UHGV virus genome: UHGV-0155081
Reading direction: 5' to 3' (one strand)
Source: a virus
DNA: 42,128 nt
The notes under the pieces were generated by a model, which saw nothing but the letters and a program-made list of their open reading frames with translations, had not been told where the DNA came from and did not search any database. The position numbers and the translations under genes were made by a program. Of this stretch, positions 2,889-37,026 are shown piece after piece; within the stretch, counting starts at the first letter, position 1; each line of letters starts with the position of its first letter.

Positions 2889-3962
2889 TCATTTGTCGAT
2901 TTCAATTTTGTCCCATTCCCGTCCACGGCTGTCCCTATACCGCGCCGCCATTGAATCTGATTTATGCCCGAGAAGACGTTGAGCAAACTTATCGCCAATC
3001 TGGTTCCGGTATAGCCTCGCTGACAGGCTACGCAGTTCATGGAATGTTGGCGGGTTTCCATCAAATGAGAGTCCAGATGCATTTCTCGCCTTTGTAAAAT
3101 ACTTTGATACTGTTTTCGGGGAAAGCGGATCGTGATGCTTTGATGCGATTATAGTTTCACTGCTGCTGGCATCCCTGCATTTCTGTAGTGTATCAGCCAA
3201 TGAGATATTGAGCGCGTCAATCGTTAGCATTAGCGGAATGGCGAGTTTAGCCCCTGTTTTACTCTGTTCAATGTGAAGATGGTTGTCGTTTATGTCTGAC
3301 CATTTCATTCTGCACAAATCGCCGACTCTCTGCCCTGTAACGACGGCCAAATCCATCGCCAGCCTTAGCCAGATAGGGAGAGGTTCGGCTGCATGGTAAA
3401 TCTCGACATACTCATTAGCTGTCAGCCTTGAGCGCCTTACTTCTGACTTTGCTGTACGGGTTGCTGTTACCGGATTCGTTGCCACATGCCCCTCGGCTAT
3501 TGCTTCACGAAAAACGTCAACAAGGGTTGACCTGATTAATTTTGCGGAAGCTGCTTTACCTTCTGCTACGTAGGTGTTTAGCATTGCTGCCACTTCTTTC
3601 GTTGATATGTCAGTGAGCGGTTTGTCCGGCAATTTTCTTCGGATTGCCCTGATTTTGCTGGCGTAGTCGAGTAGAGTTTTCGGCCTGATCCCCCTTTCGG
3701 TGAGGATTCTTTCATATCGGTCAAGCCACACATGAAGAGTGATTGCGTCACCGCCTTTAATTCTGTCTATCAGTGATTTGCGTCCGCTGTCTGAGAGTAA
3801 CTCAATGTTGGCCTGTATAGCTTCAGTGATTGCTATCCTCCTGTCTCGGCCTAATCCAAACTCTTTACCCGTCCTTGGGTCCCTGTAGCAGTAATATCCA
3901 TTGTTTCTTATATAAAGGTTAGGAGGTAAATCCCGGCGCTCATGACTTCGCCTTCTTCCCAT
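2889..3962 (-). CDS. int: Tyrosine integrase, lambda Int family
   Basis: 357 aa; N-terminal arm-binding region and C-terminal catalytic region (HELRSLSARLY...LLGHKSDSMAARY) closely resemble lambda Int from memory. Confidence 0.93.
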   Translation of the reverse strand: MGRRRSHERRDLPPNLYIRNNGYYCYRDPRTGKEFGLGRDRRIAITEAIQANIELLSDSGRKSLIDRIKGGDAITLHVWLDRYERILTERGIRPKTLLDYASKIRAIRRKLPDKPLTDISTKEVAAMLNTYVAEGKAASAKLIRSTLVDVFREAIAEGHVATNPVTATRTAKSEVRRSRLTANEYVEIYHAAEPLPIWLRLAMDLAVVTGQRVGDLCRMKWSDINDNHLHIEQSKTGAKLAIPLMLTIDALNISLADTLQKCRDASSSETIIASKHHDPLSPKTVSKYFTKARNASGLSFDGNPPTFHELRSLSARLYRNQIGDKFAQRLLGHKSDSMAARYRDSRGREWDKIEIDK

Positions 3963-32736: not shown

Positions 32737-34844
32737 GTTTACCAGAGGGGTTTGTTCTGGATGAACAGCCTGATAACTCACAACTTCCTGATGGCTTTGT
32801 GCTTGATTCCCAACCAGAACAGCAGCAATCTCGTTTGGTTTCACCAGAGGAAAATTCCAGACAGGAAAATGTTGTTAATAATGCTAACGGTTTCGACCGT
32901 TTTATGTATGGCGTTCTCAGTGGATTGATGGATGTTGGTAAAGGTGTTGGCCTGTTTCAGGATATGACACCAGAAGAGCAAGCCGCAATTCAGTCTCTAC
33001 AGCAGAAGTTAGCGGCAAAACCATCAACCGCACAAGATGTTGGTGAGTTTGTTGGACAAGCAGCGCCATTTGTTAGTGGTGGTGGGATTATTTCTCAGGT
33101 TCCGAAAGGGGCGGCAAGGCTGGCTGCCGCCGCAGGGCTTGGTGCTGGAGAAGGGGCTATTGTAGCCAATGGAACAAATAGCGATGTTGCTTCCGGCACT
33201 GCTATTGGCGCTGTGGCTGGCCCTGTAGCCGAGATTGTTGGTCCAGCGCTTGGGAAGATTGCAGGAAAAATTAAAAATAGTGCCGGGGATATTTATCGCT
33301 CATCCGTAGGGATGGGGAGTAAATCATCTAAAGCAACGTTAAAGAAAGCTGCTGGCGCAATGGATAATAAATTTATTGGCGGGCAACGAGCTATTCAAGG
33401 TTTCGCCGATGAAGTTAATCCTGATTTTAACGCGATAAATGCCATCCGTGAGCTAGAACTGGAAAATTATGCCACTCCAGGAATGATCTCTAATAATCCT
33501 GCTGTCAGGGCTCTTGATAATGCAGTGGCAAGTCTCCCTGGAACAGAGATTAGTGAGGCGCATAAGCGCTTTATTACTGAATTAGGAAGAAAAGCTGATG
33601 AAATGATAATTTCATTTGGGGGAAACCTTGATAAGCAACTGGTTTCTGACAGGCTTGCAGATAATTTTGATAAAACCATTTCATCATTACAAAATCAGTC
33701 AGATAACATCTACAACAAAATTGCGGAAAAGGTTCCAGTAAGAGACCGTATTGAGGCAACCAATACATTGAATTTTTTAGAGGATTTTGCTGATGACATA
33801 GGTGGAATTGATGAATTATCTCCAATAATGAAGCGGACATTGAACCGACTTGATCCAAACACCTTGCCAACGTATGGGCGTTTAGATCTCGCTAGAAAGC
33901 AGGTTGGGCAAGCTATTGGCAAAGGCTCTGGCCCATTCAAGGATGAAGAAACAGGTGTTCTTAAAAAGTTATATGCAGCTATAACAGATGACCAACAGGC
34001 TGTCGCAGAAAAATATGGCGCAGGGGAGTTATGGACGCTTGGTAAGGAGTTGGTAAAAAAACGAAAATCCATTGAAGATGATGCCGTAACCGTTTTGGGT
34101 AGAAAACTTCAGCAATCAGCAATTCCAAAAGTTGAAAGTGCCGTTGTTAATATGGCAAAAGGAAACGGTGGTGACTTTAGGCAATTAATGAAGTCAATTC
34201 CAAAGGATATGCGGCAGGAAGTTGCGCTCACCTCAATGAATAAAGCATTTACCAGCTATGCTAAATCACCAGGTCAGCAATTAGGGGTTGATGGATTTGT
34301 AAAATGGTATAACGGAATGTCACGCAATGGGGCCAATATGAAGGCTCTCCGTGATGCTATTGGCACAGATGCATCAAAGCGCCTTGATACGATTTATCAA
34401 GCAGCCAAGGCTATGAATAGACTCAATACTGGTAAGCAGTATGCTAGCAGCCTTGTGGATCAGCAAGTTAATAACTTTCTGAAGGAAAAGGGTAGTCTAG
34501 CAAAAATTTATGGAATAGCCTCAAAAGCTGCTGCGGCGGAAGGTGTTACAAGCTTATCTGGTCTTCCTGGTGTAGGTGCAACAGGGGTGATAACGTCCGC
34601 ATTGATGTCAGGGAAAACAAGCAGGATAAAGGCTGCTGATGCTCTACTGTCTTCTCCTGAGTTTAAATCAATGCTATTTCGCCTGCAAAACGCACCAGTA
34701 GACAGAGCAGAAGTGAGACGCGCAATAGAAAGGAAACTGATGCAATCTGGGGCATTTAAGAGATGGGAGAAAACCCTATCAACAGATGAAGCAAAAACCA
34801 TTGCCCGCACGGGGATTATTACATGGCTCGCTAGTGACAGTTAG
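32721..34844 (+). CDS. Ejection protein (P22 gp16-like)
   Basis: 707 aa, Gly/Ala-rich segments, synteny. Confidence 0.6.
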
Positions 34845-35068
34845 TCAACTTTGGTTATTTTGCCTTCTTTTTCTTGATGAACTTTGCATCCATCATCTTT
34901 TGATAGCCAAACTAAAAACTTTAAAACCTTAAACACAAGTACGGATACTGTAATGAAAGCACCAATTGCAATTATTGCTAGTGAAATTATTTGCATTGGT
35001 GCTTTTAATGCAGGGAAAATAGTGTAAATGATCGCGAAAACAGTAATTATGAGGAACCATCGCTTCAC
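34841..35068 (-). CDS. Small membrane protein (two predicted TM helices)
   Basis: 75 aa, AT-rich, divergent from the 35222 gene. Confidence 0.4.
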   Translation of the reverse strand: MKRWFLIITVFAIIYTIFPALKAPMQIISLAIIAIGAFITVSVLVFKVLKFLVWLSKDDGCKVHQEKEGKITKVD

Positions 35069-35150
35069 ACCAACCTCCTTAGTTTTGAGCAGGATACCAT
35101 GATGTCAGTGCAAGGGGGAGAAAGTCTCCTCATTATCTGATTCGCAATTT

Positions 35151-35196
35151 ACGTGCATATTTAAATATTGCACGTTATAACGTGCATGTGTATGAT
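35151..35196 (+). promoter_or_regulatory. Sigma70-like promoter overlapped by ACGTGCA operator repeats
   Basis: -35 TTGCAC (35168..35173), 17-bp spacer, -10 TATGAT (35191..35196); inverted repeat ACGTGCA (35151..35157) / TGCACGT (35169..35175) and third copy at 35180..35186. Confidence 0.5.
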
Positions 35197-35221
35197 TGAC
35201 TTATCAATCACAACACGAGAT

Positions 35222-36235
35222 ATGCTCATGAAAAATGATGATGTTAGTGGGAAGGCCAAAGGCGGTAAGGCACGCGCGGCAAAAATGACAGCAGAGCAAA
35301 GAAAAGAATCCTCAAGAAAGGCTGTTGCCGCAAAAAAAGAAAAAGCTTTATTGCCCGTATCTGCGAATGAGGGAAAGTTAAAGATCGGTGATGCGGAATT
35401 AGATGTCGCGGTTCTCGAAAATGGACGGCGTATCATATCACAAGCTTCTGTTTTTAAAGCATTTGGCCGACCACAAAGAGGGGGTAGAGCACCTCAAGAA
35501 GAGGGGGTGATCAATATGCCCGCTTTTATGGATGCTGCAAACCTTAAAAAATATATAAATCAAGATGTTATGGATGTGATCAATAAGGTCAAATACAAGA
35601 CGATTACTGGCTCCGTCCAGGAAGGTTATGACGCATCCATAATACCTCTTGTTTGCGATGTTTATTTAAAGGCAAGAGAGGCAGGCGCTATCACCAGGCC
35701 AAACCAGTTAGAGACAGCCAAGAAAGCTGAAATTCTGGTGCGCTCATTAGCTAAAGTCGGAATAATAGCGCTTGTTGATGAAGCGACGGGGTACCAGCGA
35801 GATAGAGAAAAAGATGCGCTCGCCAAAATACTCGAGGCCTTTGTCGCAAAGGAAATTCAACCTTATATTACAACATTTCCGGCTGATTATTATGAAGAGC
35901 TTTTCAGGTTAAGGGGCTTAGAATACCCGCCGGAAAATCCCCGCTTCCGGCCTCAGTATTTTGGCGTTTTGACAAATGATATCGTCTACAAGAGATTGGC
36001 ACCAAACATCCTTGAGGAGCTTAAAAAGCAGAACGTAAAGGCCTCAAAAGGTACAAAGTTGTTTCAGGGGCTGACGCCAAATATTGGATATCAAAAATTA
36101 AGAGAGCATCTGTCATCAACCGTTACGATTATGAAGCTATCTAACGACTATTCAGATTTTATTGCAAAAATGAATCGCCTGCATCCAAGGTTTGAGGATG
36201 TGAAAACAGACGAACTGGATGATTCAGACAAGTAA
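35222..36235 (+). CDS. Uncharacterised protein with lysine-rich N-terminus (sieA-position gene)
   Basis: Track ORF 35168..36235; 35222 (MLMKNDD...) is the first ATG downstream of the predicted promoter; about 337 aa. Confidence 0.5.
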   Translation: MLMKNDDVSGKAKGGKARAAKMTAEQRKESSRKAVAAKKEKALLPVSANEGKLKIGDAELDVAVLENGRRIISQASVFKAFGRPQRGGRAPQEEGVINMPAFMDAANLKKYINQDVMDVINKVKYKTITGSVQEGYDASIIPLVCDVYLKAREAGAITRPNQLETAKKAEILVRSLAKVGIIALVDEATGYQRDREKDALAKILEAFVAKEIQPYITTFPADYYEELFRLRGLEYPPENPRFRPQYFGVLTNDIVYKRLAPNILEELKKQNVKASKGTKLFQGLTPNIGYQKLREHLSSTVTIMKLSNDYSDFIAKMNRLHPRFEDVKTDELDDSDK

Positions 36236-36240
36236 CAGTA

Positions 36241-36264
36241 ACCCACCGTCAGGTGGGTTTTTTA
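36241..36264 (+). terminator. Rho-independent terminator
   Basis: ACCCACC-gtca-GGTGGGT followed by TTTTTTA. Confidence 0.65.
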
Positions 36265-36503
36265 TCTTCTCCGTACATGCTGCTGAGAGTCTTAAGAAGA
36301 GCCTCCCTAAATTTTTCAGATTCTTGTTGAGCAAAACCTTCTATCGATCTTGGTGATTTTTCTTCATCAATAGCGGCTTGCAAGATCATAACTATTTCTG
36401 AATTTAATGAACGACCGTTTCTCGATGCCCTTATGGTCAAGTCGCGCTTGAGGCTATCTGGCATTCTTACGCTATATGGGGCTATGTCTCTAACCTTCGT
36501 CAT
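36249..36503 (-). CDS. mnt: Mnt-like ribbon-helix-helix repressor
   Basis: 84 aa; N-terminal RMPDSLKRDLTIRASRNGRSLNSEIV is the Arc/Mnt RHH motif; divergent from arc-ant. Confidence 0.75.
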   Translation of the reverse strand: MTKVRDIAPYSVRMPDSLKRDLTIRASRNGRSLNSEIVMILQAAIDEEKSPRSIEGFAQQESEKFREALLKTLSSMYGEDKKPT

Positions 36504-36509
36504 ACTTAC

Positions 36510-36611
36510 ACCGTGATAATCACATTGATATCACAGTGTATTCAAAAAAATTTTGACTTGATATATTCACAGTGATATGTTTGTGATTCACAATAACTCA
36601 CATGTGACAAT
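36510..36611. promoter_or_regulatory. Divergent Pmnt/Pant control region with palindromic operators
   Basis: Pant -35 TTGACT (36553..36558), -10 TATGTT (36576..36581); palindromes GTGATAATCAC, TCACATGTGA and CACAGTGATAT half-site repeats. Confidence 0.5.
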
Positions 36612-36764
36612 ATGGAAAAAGAAGTTAGCAGAATTTTGGTGAGAATGCCTCAGTCGCTAAAAGATGCGATTACAGGAAAGGCCAAAGAAGAATGCCGGTC
36701 GTTTAACTCGGAAGTGATTAAGCGCCTGATGGACAGCCTGAAGAGAGAGGGGATAACTGTATGA
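36612..36764 (+). CDS. arc: Arc-like ribbon-helix-helix repressor (50 aa)
   Basis: Manual translation MEKEVSRILVRMPQSLKDAITGKAKEECRSFNSEVIKRLMDSLKREGITV; RHH motif as in P22 Arc. Confidence 0.75.
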   Translation: MEKEVSRILVRMPQSLKDAITGKAKEECRSFNSEVIKRLMDSLKREGITV

Positions 36765-36964
36765 GTAAAGAATGTTGTTTCTGCGGCATTAGCGAATCAG
36801 ACGCTGATCAAACATACATTTACTCTAAAGAAACAGGTCGGATGCTGTGTAGTGACTGCGTGTTGGACATCATAAGATACAAGCATCTTGGATGTTCTGC
36901 CAGCATTAGCAATATAGGTGAAGTATATGAAGGGAAAGATATAACTGATAGAGCAGAAAGTTGA
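36761..36964 (+). CDS. Small Cys-rich (zinc-ribbon-like) protein between arc and ant
   Basis: 67 aa with CCFC...CSDC; start overlaps arc stop (ATGA). Confidence 0.4.
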   Translation: MSKECCFCGISESDADQTYIYSKETGRMLCSDCVLDIIRYKHLGCSASISNIGEVYEGKDITDRAES

Positions 36965-37026
36965 AGCCCCAACTGCTGTAACAGTCAGGGCTTCGTTTGT
37001 CAGTAAATCCGTGGAGAAAAACCAAC

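What the first reader, a model, noticed from the sequence alone, without database searches (positions are those of the whole stretch)
34841..36264. Operator-guarded gene of unknown function in the sieA position of the immI-like region
Between the gp16-like ejection gene and mnt, where P22 carries sieA, sits an unassigned protein of about 337 aa with a lysine-rich N-terminus, divergent from a 75-aa two-TM protein. Its promoter (TTGCAC-17-TATGAT) is overlapped by three copies of ACGTGCA, two forming an inverted repeat with 11-bp spacing, implying tight repression in the lysogen or autoregulation. The region is AT-rich and ends in a strong terminator. This is the best candidate in the window for an uncharacterised exclusion or anti-phage function.
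Basis: partly seen in the sequence, partly recalled or inferred. Interest (0 to 1): 0.62.

Follow-up and report, generated by a model that had tools for sequence, protein, structure and literature searches.

The report
Self-regulated P63C prophage gene cassette
The gene is a mobile, self-contained prophage cassette, also found in Shiga-toxin phages, whose protein very probably binds a conserved palindrome in its own promoter; it sits where prophages keep exclusion genes, but its function is still unknown.

Summary
A 337-aa ORF lies between gp16 and mnt. Its TTGCAC-17-TATGAT promoter-like site overlaps three exact ACGTGCA copies, two of which form a perfect 18-bp palindrome, and a terminator follows the gene.

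The protein is not unassigned. It is a P63C-domain protein (Pfam PF10546, PHROG 2384). Window 35079-36263 is 99.4% identical to gene L0095 in the nin region of Shiga-toxin phage 933W, so it is a discrete mobile cassette.

New here: boxes of consensus ATGCA(A/C)GCAT lie upstream of P63C genes across many bacterial phyla. One residue of the N-terminal basic helix tracks the box type. It is Ile with TGCAAG boxes and Ser or Ala with TGCACG boxes, in about eight separate groups. This points to the protein repressing its own promoter.

Alleles sit just 3' of cI, in the sieA slot, beside integrases, or reversed among tail genes. These are all positions where prophages keep lysogen-expressed accessory genes.

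An exclusion or defence role is plausible but rests on position only. No known defence family, solved structure or publication matches. The gene is already catalogued; its regulation is newly inferred; its function is open.

The parts
34841..35068 (-). 75-aa ORF with two predicted transmembrane segments (GTG start, strong AAGGAGG Shine-Dalgarno). It is a neighbour, not part of the cassette.
   Evidence: ORF. It matches phrog_7294 (8e-49, unknown function). Hydropathy segments are about aa 4-22 and 27-46. It occurs without the P63C cassette in phages E212 and EC.P3, and is replaced by a 134-aa gene in phage 611R6.
35079..36263 (+). Mobile cassette ('moron') holding the leader, operator boxes, promoter, P63C gene and terminator.
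   Evidence: 99.4-99.5% identical to the nin region of Stx phages 933W, BP-4795 and Stx2 phage I. There are 7 nucleotide differences and 1 amino-acid difference from 933W. Edges were defined by alignment. The same allele is in 49 of 5426 complete E. coli genomes, all at 99.4% identity or more.
35151..35157 (+). Upstream box (ACGTGCA; extended form TACGTGCATA). It overlaps the -35 of a candidate leftward promoter.
   Evidence: It is conserved in the 87% allele L024. The candidate minus-strand promoter is TATGCA (35159)-16-GATAAT (35137), 8 of 12.
35169..35186 (.). Main operator: the perfect 18-bp palindrome TGCACG-TTATAA-CGTGCA (two inverted boxes). It covers the -35 hexamer and the spacer.
   Evidence: the repeat finder pair I2. 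It is unique in the window. The same geometry lies upstream of homologues and nowhere else in 770 kb.
35168..35196 (+). Sigma-70-like promoter TTGCAC-17-TATGAT (8 of 12 consensus positions).
   Evidence: Sequence and relaxed scan. It was not listed by the stricter scan.
35193..35210 (.). Inverted repeat TGATTGA-N4-TCAATCA over the -10 hexamer and the likely transcription start, followed by the conserved leader CACAACACGAG (35208-35218).
   Evidence: the repeat finder pair I4. The leader motif is shared by enteric alleles, ST104 and 611R6. The RNA fold of the leader is not significant (z = -0.45).
35222..36235 (+). P63C-domain protein gene (337 aa; the start could instead be 35228; RefSeq copies start at 35186, inside the promoter).
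   Evidence: Pfam PF10546 at 9.2e-24, aa 203-293. phrog_2384 at 1.8e-146 over the full length. More than 6700 homologue clusters. AlphaFold2 model with mean pLDDT 80.
35261..35347 (+). N-terminal basic helical tail (aa 14-42, GGKARAAKMTAEQRKESSRKAVAAKKEKA), the proposed DNA-reading helix. The codon for Ser30 is 35309-35311.
   Evidence: Helices at aa 11-21 and 24-42 in the model. The residue-30 column carries 0.85 bit of mutual information with box type. The two streptococcal homologues that lack the tail also lack boxes.
35354..35686 (+). Middle alpha/beta domain (aa 45-155), which looks like a Bro-N/KilA-N type DNA-binding domain.
35828..36100 (+). P63C core domain (aa 203-293), part of an all-helical C-terminal region (aa 160-320) that is highly conserved across phyla.
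   Evidence: hhalign to Mx8 p63: probability 99%, 36% identity. No solved structural relative was found.
36240..36267 (+). Rho-independent terminator (AACCCACC-GTCA-GGTGGGTT followed by TTTTTT). The stem overlaps the last codons and stop codon of the convergent mnt gene.
   Evidence: The mnt ORF ends at 36249. The terminator is shared by the 611R6 allele and the 933W copy.
36249..36503 (-). mnt-like Arc/ribbon-helix-helix repressor gene, convergent with the cassette (a neighbour).
   Evidence: Pfam Arc at 1.1e-8. The immI context is confirmed by arc, ant and sar RNA.

Best explanation
Window 35079-36263 is a self-contained, horizontally mobile prophage cassette (a 'moron'). It has its own promoter, operator, one gene and a terminator. 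The gene encodes a three-part protein: a basic N-terminal helix, a Bro-N-like alpha/beta domain, and a highly conserved all-helical P63C domain.

Proposed mechanism:
1. The protein binds as an oligomer to boxes of the family type ATGCA(A/C)GCAT. Here the variant is (A/T)TGCACGT.
2. Two boxes form the palindrome at 35169-35186 over the -35 hexamer and spacer. A third box lies 18 bp upstream.
3. The N-terminal helix reads the centre of each box, with residue 30 as the specificity residue.
4. Binding shuts off the gene's own sigma-70 promoter. The gene is therefore held at a low, self-limited level in the lysogen, independent of the phage's C2, Mnt and Arc repressors.

What is shown and what is inferred:
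- Shown by sequence: the cassette nature, the conservation of the operator, and the protein-box covariation.
- Inferred: that the protein binds the boxes and represses the promoter.
- Inferred more weakly (my estimate about 0.3-0.35): what the C-terminal domain does. Tight self-repression, positions in lysogeny and immunity modules, and conservation across phyla make the most likely role a lysogen-expressed activity on nucleic acid that protects against other phages (exclusion or abortive infection).
For: Cassette:
- Identity of 99.4-99.5% from 35079 to 36263 with the 933W nin region, including the operator and terminator, in a phage with different immunity.
- 49 of 5426 E. coli genomes carry this allele, all at 99.4% identity or more.
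- A 27%-identical P63C allele sits in the same gp16/mnt slot in phage 611R6, between the same junction sequences.

Operator:
- TGCA[AC]G-N6-C[GT]TGCA occurs 36 times in 770 kb, only upstream of P63C genes.
- An unbiased 6-mer scan ranks CTTGCA first, with 48 observed against 3.3 expected.
- In 79 genomes of many phyla, 49 have two or more half-sites within 172 nt upstream, against a background of 0.96 per kb.
- The 154 instances show flanking-base bias that was not part of the search pattern (C 69%, A 82%, T 59%). This gives the consensus ATGCAAGCAT.

The protein reads the box:
- The residue-30 column has 0.85 bit of mutual information with box type; the next-best column has 0.39.
- With TGCAAG boxes, residue 30 is Ile in 41 of 48 loci and never Ser or Ala. 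With TGCACG boxes it is Ser or Ala in 18 of 18 loci and never Ile.
- The Ser/Ala loci fall into about 8 separate groups.
- Within the same E. coli phage slot, the window allele has Ser30 with TGCACG boxes and the 611R6 allele has Ile with TGCAAG boxes.
- The two tail-less streptococcal homologues have no boxes.

DNA-binding architecture:
- Mx8 p63 is Bro-N plus P63C.
- Weak but thematically consistent fold matches to DNA-binding domains.

Lysogeny context:
- Directly 3' of a CI-type repressor in ST104, L024, L025 and L028.
- Repressor, then P63C, then integrase in Javan515 and satellite Javan441.
- Co-oriented with the integrase and immunity repressor in Gordonia phage Barco.
- A reversed cassette among tail genes, sometimes beside Imm_superinfect and an Arc/Arc/Ant module, in P. 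aeruginosa prophages.
- Reversed in the nin region of SEN34, and next to the integrase in Lodos and DC1.
Against: - No experiment supports binding, repression, expression in lysogens or any phenotype, and no paper on P63C function was found.
- The promoter is only an 8 of 12 match and was missed by the standard scan.
- The covariation counts are not phylogenetically corrected. The 'about 8 independent groups' come from an identity-clustered tree, not a proper phylogeny.
- The link between tail and boxes rests on two tail-less lineages only.
- In many relatives two boxes lie in the transcribed leader and could act as an RNA hairpin rather than as DNA sites.
- For the defence part, there is no significant PADLOC or NCBIfam match, no recognisable catalytic fold, and no second copy of the operator in the window that would suggest a target. 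The evidence is positional only.
Confidence: 0.6

Rival explanations
1. The protein is a phage developmental regulator of the Bro-N/Ant/Roi class. It would be an antirepressor or transcription factor acting on prophage induction, cross-talk with other prophages, or host genes. It would not be a defence gene. It still autoregulates through the boxes.
For: - The architecture parallels Mx8 p63 (Bro-N plus P63C, which RefSeq labels 'anti-repressor Ant').
- Fold matches trend toward Bro, KilA and antirepressor proteins.
- It lies beside the mnt-arc-ant module here and in P. aeruginosa prophages, and next to roi in 933W.
Against: - There is no HMM match to the Ant, P22_AR or Bro-N domains.
- Co-transcription with the repressor and integrase in streptococcal prophages and placement just 3' of cI are odd for an antirepressor.
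- No second operator copy was found in the window.
Confidence: 0.2
2. The cassette is a selfish mobile gene, comparable to a free-standing homing-endonuclease gene. The protein would recognise specific DNA and promote spread of its own cassette into cassette-less phage genomes. The boxes would serve self-regulation or self-protection.
For: - The cassette has sharp edges and is 99.4% or more identical in unrelated phage backgrounds and positions.
- Different alleles share the same junction sequences at one slot.
- The C-terminal region holds many invariant polar residues (D186, E187, Q192, R195, E205, E211, E295, H321).
- From my own knowledge (Iyer et al. 2002, not held in the library): Bro-N/KilA-N domains are fused to nuclease-related domains in other phage proteins.
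Against: - No nuclease motif or fold was recognised.
- The C-terminal region is all-helical.
- Its stable presence in lysogeny modules across many phyla is more typical of a gene that is useful to the lysogen.
Confidence: 0.08
3. The repeats are operators for a different regulator: the prophage's C2, Mnt or Arc repressors, or a host transcription factor. The gene would then be silenced in the lysogen, which was the first reader's 'tight repression' option.
For: - The boxes overlap the -35 hexamer and spacer.
- mnt is the adjacent gene.
Against: - The identical operator accompanies the gene in 933W, which has no mnt or arc next to it and has different immunity.
- Two alleles in the same host species and the same phage slot carry different boxes that match their own residue 30.
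- The boxes are conserved from Proteobacteria to Actinobacteria and Chloroflexi, which rules out any lineage-specific host factor.
- The mnt-arc intergenic region (36504-36611) contains no such box.
Confidence: 0.05
4. The boxes act mainly at the RNA level. Inverted boxes in the leader would fold to hide the ribosome-binding site and start codon, or the arginine/lysine-rich N-terminal helix would bind its own mRNA.
For: - In ST104, 611R6 and many distant relatives, one box follows the -10 hexamer and an inverted box covers the start codon, so the transcript could form a stem of about 9 bp.
- A degenerate box (ATGCTCATG) covers the start codons here (pair I1).
Against: - In the window all three exact boxes lie upstream of the -10 hexamer and would not be transcribed.
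- The leader fold is no better than shuffled sequence (z = -0.45).
- Upstream box pairs around the -35 hexamer are general in the family.
Confidence: 0.07

Closest known systems
Gene L0095 / ST933Wp35 of Shiga-toxin phage 933W (also in BP-4795, Stx2 converting phage I and others)
   Same: It is the same cassette: 1185 bp with 7 differences and a protein with one amino-acid difference (D118G). The operator, promoter and terminator are all included.
   Different: Its location differs. In 933W it lies in the nin region between a DNA methyltransferase gene and roi. Here it lies between the 75-aa gene next to gp16 and mnt. The 933W copy carries a relic of the mnt 3' end and of the P22-type left junction, which suggests it came from a P22-like phage. 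It is annotated only as hypothetical or P63C-domain protein.
Myxococcus phage Mx8 p63, the protein that gave Pfam P63C (PF10546) its name
   Same: It shares the C-terminal P63C domain (hhalign probability 99%, 36% identity over 91 residues). It also has a DNA-binding type domain in front of the P63C domain.
   Different: Mx8 p63 has a canonical Bro-N domain and lacks the basic N-terminal helix and the aa 160-200 segment (VDEATGYQ). The window protein has no Bro-N HMM match. Neither protein has a demonstrated function.
P22 SieA (superinfection exclusion protein encoded between genes 16 and 9/mnt)
   Same: It occupies the same genomic slot and is a prophage-expressed accessory gene (PMC10883804).
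   Different: [quoted passage not shown] The P63C protein is soluble and has no such motif. No such motif occurs anywhere in the window.
Lambda rexAB-type genes carried just downstream of the cI repressor gene
   Same: P63C alleles at 87%, 74%, 61% and 33% identity sit immediately 3' of a CI-type repressor gene on the same strand.
   Different: There is no homology. The P63C cassette is insulated by a terminator and has its own promoter and operators, so it is not read from the cI promoter. No exclusion phenotype is known for it.
Bro-N/KilA-N/Ant-type phage regulators (P22 Ant, HK022/933W Roi)
   Same: They share a two-part build, with an N-terminal DNA-binding-like domain and a helical C-terminal domain. 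They are also neighbours of this gene in both phage types.
   Different: There are no HMM matches to these families. Control is by self-repression, not by Mnt, Arc or sar.
Basic-helix readout of abutting half-sites, as in bZIP proteins (analogy only, from my own knowledge)
   Same: A basic alpha-helix and a 10-bp quasi-palindrome built from two 5-bp half-sites (ATGCW/WGCAT). One helix residue sets the central-base preference.
   Different: There is no leucine zipper and no sequence relationship. The mode of oligomerisation is unknown. This was not tested structurally.

Membership tests
Pfam P63C (PF10546) | HMM match above the curated gathering score | tested here: met
   84.3 bits against a cut-off of 26.1, E = 9.2e-24, aa 203-293 covering profile positions 1-93 of 93.
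PHROG 2384 (phage protein family of unknown function) | Full-length profile match | tested here: met
   E = 1.8e-146, aa 5-336 against profile positions 2-337 of 338.
Bro-N domain proteins (PF02498) | HMM match to Bro-N in the N-terminal half | tested here: not met
   No Pfam family at E up to 10 for aa 1-192. Mx8 p63 does match Bro-N, at 5.9e-19.
Bro-N domain proteins (PF02498) | Bro-N/KilA-N-like fold of the N-terminal domain | tested here: inconclusive
Moron (autonomous accessory transcription unit in a prophage) | Present or absent between conserved genes in related phages, and found in unrelated positions | tested here: met
   It is absent or replaced in E212, EC.P3 and 611R6. It is present in the nin region of 933W.
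Moron (autonomous accessory transcription unit in a prophage) | Own promoter and own terminator | tested here: inconclusive
   The terminator is clear. The promoter is only a consensus match of 8 of 12. Activity cannot be shown with these tools.
Moron (autonomous accessory transcription unit in a prophage) | Base composition different from the surrounding genome | tested here: inconclusive
   42.4% GC against 46.4% for the window, but the neighbouring late genes are similar at 0.37-0.46.
SieA superinfection-exclusion proteins | Inner-membrane protein with several transmembrane helices and the motif FxRYPxEAxxFNK (PMC10883804) | tested here: not met
   The P63C protein has no hydrophobic segments in the model. 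The motif is absent from all six reading frames of the window. The 75-aa ORF has two transmembrane segments but no motif, and is smaller than P22 SieA, whose conserved motif alone spans residues 145-157 (PMC10883804).
Known anti-phage defence systems (PADLOC-DB v2) | Significant HMM match to a defence-system component | tested here: not met
   The best matches are a Type I specificity subunit (E = 0.006, 40 residues) and PDC-M46A (E = 0.014, not colinear).
Negatively autoregulated DNA-binding proteins | Cognate operator overlapping the protein's own promoter and co-inherited with the gene | tested here: met
   The palindrome covers the -35 hexamer and spacer. It is co-inherited in every context and conserved across phyla.
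Negatively autoregulated DNA-binding proteins | Operator sequence covaries with the protein's recognition residues | tested here: met
   Residue 30: Ile in 41 of 48 TGCAAG loci, Ser or Ala in 18 of 18 TGCACG loci, with no crossovers between these residue classes. Mutual information is 0.85 bit against 0.39 for the next column.
Negatively autoregulated DNA-binding proteins | Physical binding, and repression of the promoter by the protein | not testable with these tools
   This needs gel-shift or footprinting assays and reporter assays.

The most novel reading that the evidence does not exclude
P63C proteins are a previously unrecognised class of prophage-encoded protective effectors that spans bacterial phyla. 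A bZIP-like basic helix would both throttle the gene at ATGCWWGCAT boxes and guide the conserved helical P63C domain, which has no solved structural relative, to act on incoming phage nucleic acid. This would make the cassette in Stx phages and P22-like prophages a new single-gene defence or exclusion system, with a new DNA-reading module whose specificity can be reprogrammed at one residue.
Probability: 0.22. Interest if true: 0.78.

Novelty: new member of a known kind. Interest (0 to 1): 0.55.

Why it matters
- **Size and reach of the family.** The family has more than 6700 clusters at 90% identity. It keeps 40-50% identity from Enterobacteria to Actinobacteria, Chloroflexi, Planctomycetes and Chlamydiae. 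It rides in the Stx2 phage of E. coli O157:H7 EDL933. I found no function for it in the literature searched.
- **A concrete starting point.** This analysis supplies a defined operator, a predicted recognition helix, and a single-residue specificity switch (Ser30 to Ile, TGCACG to TGCAAG). That switch can be tested in a day with gel shifts and reporter fusions.
- **If the lysogeny-module placement reflects a protective role,** this would be a new single-gene prophage defence or exclusion family.
- **If it does not,** it is still a new type of autoregulated phage DNA-binding protein and a candidate compact, orthogonal repressor/operator set.

Tried and rejected
- **Family and structure searches that gave nothing useful.**
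  - Pfam on aa 1-192 at E up to 10 found no family.
  - NCBIfam gave only sub-threshold noise.
  - PADLOC gave nothing significant.
  - A PDB sequence profile search gave one chance match.
  - Foldseek against the PDB gave nothing at E of 0.001 or less.
  - The afdb50 library was not available.
- **Literature.** 'P63C', 'P63C domain', P63C with phage, 933W with L0095, and Lahn1/Nil3/BP-4795 gave no functional information. The Iyer et al. 2002 paper is not held in the library.
- **Statistics that did not discriminate.**
  - The count of the bare 7-mer in the window is at chance level.
  - The test for the best repeated 7-mer in 150 nt is too permissive, because two copies are common by chance.
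  - I replaced both with the 6-mer enrichment, palindrome and flanking-base tests.
- **A corrected error.** One search suggested 553 of 5426 E. coli genomes carry the cassette, but that query included the flanks. The cassette-only query gives 49 genomes.
- **RNA ideas.** The leader RNA fold is not significant. Rfam finds nothing inside the cassette; it finds only sar RNA in the neighbouring arc-ant region.
- **Other operator targets.** A search for further operator copies in the window with up to 2 mismatches gave chance level only.
- **Rejected hypotheses.**
  - Control by Mnt, Arc, C2 or a host factor: rejected (see the rival explanations).
  - The 75-aa ORF as part of the cassette: rejected, because the two occur independently.
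  - A SieA homologue in the window: rejected, because the motif is absent.

Full report
**1. What is at the coordinates**

The window is a P22-like prophage or phage of E. coli.
- The gp16-like ejection gene ends at 34844.
- A 75-aa ORF with two hydrophobic segments runs leftward at 34841-35068.
- The target ORF runs rightward from 35222 (or 35228) to 36235.
- A convergent mnt-like Arc/RHH gene follows at 36249-36503. After it come arc, a 67-aa ORF, ant and the tailspike.
- Rfam finds P22-type sar RNA at 36959-37026 on the minus strand. This confirms an immI region.

Two copies extend to a perfect 18-bp palindrome, TGCACGTTATAACGTGCA, at 35169-35186. The terminator at 36240-36259 is clear. Three corrections apply:
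- The promoter is a moderate match, 8 of 12.
- The AT-richness is modest: 42.4% GC against 46.4% for the window.
- The protein is not unassigned.

**2. Identity of the gene**

The protein matches Pfam P63C (9e-24) and PHROG 2384 (1.8e-146). Both are families of unknown function.

Window 35079-36263 covers the leader, boxes, promoter, gene and terminator. It is 99.4-99.5% identical to a segment in the nin region of Stx phages 933W (gene L0095), BP-4795 and relatives. There are 7 nucleotide differences in 1185 bp and one amino-acid difference from 933W. The same allele is in 49 of 5426 complete E. coli genomes, always at 99.4% identity or more. An earlier figure of 553 genomes included the flanks and is withdrawn.

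Alignment of the edges gives three results:
- Identity with 933W starts at TTAGTTTTGAGCAG, just upstream of the ribosome-binding site of the 75-aa gene.
- Identity ends in the terminator, whose stem holds the last codons of mnt.
- A different P22-like phage, 611R6, has the same two junction sequences around a P63C allele that is only 27% identical.

So the gp16/mnt slot is a native site where P63C alleles are exchanged. The Stx-phage copy still carries relics of both P22-type junctions, so it most likely came from such a phage. The 75-aa gene is an independent module. It occurs without the cassette in E212 and EC.P3, and is replaced by a 134-aa gene in 611R6.

**3. The operator is a family-wide element**

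I fetched 80 viral and 80 genomic loci that encode relatives at 39-87% identity.
- An unbiased 6-mer comparison of the 130 nt upstream against the rest of the loci ranks CTTGCA/TGCAAG first, with 48 observed against 3.3 expected. CGTGCA is also enriched, 7-fold.
- The palindrome TGCA[AC]G-N6-C[GT]TGCA occurs 36 times in 770 kb. It occurs once per locus, always 50-75 nt before the P63C start and nowhere else. An N7 spacing gives 11 more, and other spacings give essentially none.
- The 79 usable genomic loci include Proteobacteria, Actinobacteria, Chloroflexi, Planctomycetes, Acidobacteria, Chlamydiae and Nitrospira. In 49 of them there are two or more half-sites within 172 nt upstream, against a background of 0.96 per kb.
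- The 154 instances show strong bias at flanking positions that were not part of the search pattern. This gives the 10-bp quasi-palindrome ATGCA(A/C)GCAT.

The usual layout is:
- a convergent pair of boxes around the -35 hexamer;
- one box just after the -10 hexamer;
- an inverted box over the start codon.

The window carries a derived layout, with three TGCACGT-type boxes all upstream of the -10 hexamer and only a degenerate box (ATGCTCATG) over the start codons.

**4. Who binds it**

The P63C gene is the only gene that always accompanies the boxes. The identical operator sits in phages with unrelated immunity systems.

The strongest evidence is covariation. In a 111-sequence alignment, one column stands out. 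It corresponds to window residue Ser30, in the N-terminal basic helix (...AEQRKE-S-SRKAVAAKK...). It carries 0.85 bit of mutual information with box type, which is essentially the maximum possible. The next-best column has 0.39.

| Box type upstream | Loci | Ile at residue 30 | Ser or Ala at residue 30 |
|---|---|---|---|
| Two or more TGCAAG, no TGCACG | 48 | 41 | 0 |
| Two or more TGCACG, at most one TGCAAG | 18 | 0 | 18 |

(The other 7 TGCAAG loci have Leu, Asn, Gln, Arg or Val.)

The Ser/Ala loci fall into about eight separate groups of an identity-clustered tree, interleaved with Ile loci. Three further points fit:
- Within one host species and one phage slot, the window allele has Ser with TGCACG boxes and the 611R6 allele has Ile with TGCAAG boxes.
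- Loci with Val at this position use AGCAAGCA boxes.
- The two streptococcal homologues that lack the basic tail lack boxes and appear to be co-transcribed with the repressor.

I infer that the basic helix (aa 24-42 in the AlphaFold2 model) reads the centre of the box and that the protein represses its own promoter. This is inferred, not shown. The grouping is not a formal phylogenetic test.

**5. Architecture and fold**

The AlphaFold2 model has a mean pLDDT of 80 and three parts:
- two N-terminal helices;
- an alpha/beta domain at aa 45-155;
- an all-helical region at aa 160-320.

The C-terminal region has no relative among solved structures. It is very conserved, with invariant D186, E187, Q192, R195, E205, E211, E295 and H321.

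**6. Genomic context elsewhere**

P63C cassettes are found in the following positions:
- directly 3' of a CI-type repressor gene (HTH_3 plus Peptidase_S24) on the same strand, behind a terminator, in Salmonella phage ST104 and in loci L024, L025 and L028;
- between the repressor and the integrase in S. pyogenes prophage Javan515 and in a streptococcal satellite;
- co-oriented with the integrase and immunity repressor in Gordonia phage Barco;
- next to the integrase in phages Lodos and DC1;
- reversed in the nin region of SEN34;
- reversed among tail genes of P. aeruginosa prophages, sometimes beside an Arc/Arc/Ant module and an Imm_superinfect gene.

These are the positions where prophages carry lysogen-expressed accessory genes. 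In P22-like prophages that have sieA, it lies between genes 16 and 9, and only 22 of 66 such phages have it (PMC10883804). The SieA motif FxRYPxEAxxFNK is absent from the window.

**7. Interpretation**

Best supported, at confidence about 0.6: this is a mobile, insulated cassette whose product represses its own promoter through the boxes.

What the conserved C-terminal domain does is open. Three things make a protective, lysogen-expressed activity on nucleic acid my leading guess, at about 0.3-0.35:
- elaborate self-limitation, with three to four boxes in most relatives;
- placement in lysogeny modules;
- conservation across phyla.

No known defence family matches and no experiment exists. Four rivals remain:
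- a Bro/Ant-type developmental regulator (about 0.2);
- a selfish, homing-type element (about 0.08);
- leader control at the RNA level (about 0.07);
- control by another repressor (about 0.05), which the evidence argues against.

**8. Novelty and score**

The gene itself is already in the databases. It has been annotated as hypothetical or P63C in 933W since that phage was sequenced. It is a member of a known though uncharacterised family, carried as an ordinary kind of prophage cassette.

What appears to be new is the family-wide operator, the inferred autoregulation, and the single-residue specificity code in a basic N-terminal helix. I found none of these in the searchable literature. Interest is moderate at 0.55. 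This is a widespread family of unknown function, present in Stx phages, that now has a precise and cheap experimental handle. It has no demonstrated phenotype.

Noticed in passing
window 36959-37026 (-): P22-type sar antisense RNA (Rfam RF00262, 90 bits against a gathering score of 43) overlaps the end of the 67-aa ORF and the start of ant. This shows the immI module is complete.
   Followed up: partly
window 36761-36964 (+): A 67-aa cysteine-rich ORF lies between arc and ant (CCFC...CSDC, like a zinc ribbon). It matches phrog_7150 (3e-50, unknown function). P22 has no gene here to my knowledge.
   Followed up: no
window 35066-35104; L002 2500-2540; L001 about 3001-3026: The junction sequence CACACCAACCTCCTTAGTTTTGAGCAGGATACCA is conserved. 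It supplies the ribosome-binding site and GTG start of two different leftward genes, the 75-aa gene here and the 134-aa gene in 611R6. It also marks the left edge of the cassette in 933W, so it is a likely recombination boundary.
   Followed up: partly
window 35132-35159 (-): A candidate leftward promoter, TATGCA-16-GATAAT (8 of 12), has its -35 hexamer overlapping the upstream box. If it is real, the P63C protein would also control the divergent 75-aa membrane-protein gene.
   Followed up: no
window 35208-35218; also L024-L027, L036, L083, L002: The leader motif CACAACA(C/A)(G/A)AG lies just before the start codon. It is conserved between P63C alleles that are only 27-33% identical. In several relatives it sits in the loop of a leader hairpin. 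Its role is unknown; it may affect translation.
   Followed up: partly
window 36249-36263: The last four codons and the stop codon of mnt are encoded by the T-run and stem of the P63C terminator. The two convergent genes therefore share the hairpin, and the 933W copy of the cassette retains this mnt relic.
   Followed up: partly
L027 1-2750: A 70%-identical P63C cassette lies next to the host thrS gene. Only the last few codons of a cI-type gene (QWPEETFG) are left upstream. This could be a prophage end or a remnant in which the cassette has been kept.
   Followed up: no
L088, L090 and L091, 4200-7040: In P. aeruginosa lambda-like prophages, an Arc-family (mnt-like) gene lies directly upstream of the P63C gene and is co-oriented with it. 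A divergent arc-ant pair sits beside them. The P63C/immI association therefore recurs in a distant host. Chance co-location in an accessory hotspot is not excluded.
   Followed up: partly
L096 (SEN34), L131, L078: Homologues with Val at the specificity position carry AGCAAGCA/TGCTTGCT boxes. Homologues with Gln, Asn, His or Arg carry other boxes or none that I could recognise. More specificity classes probably exist.
   Followed up: partly
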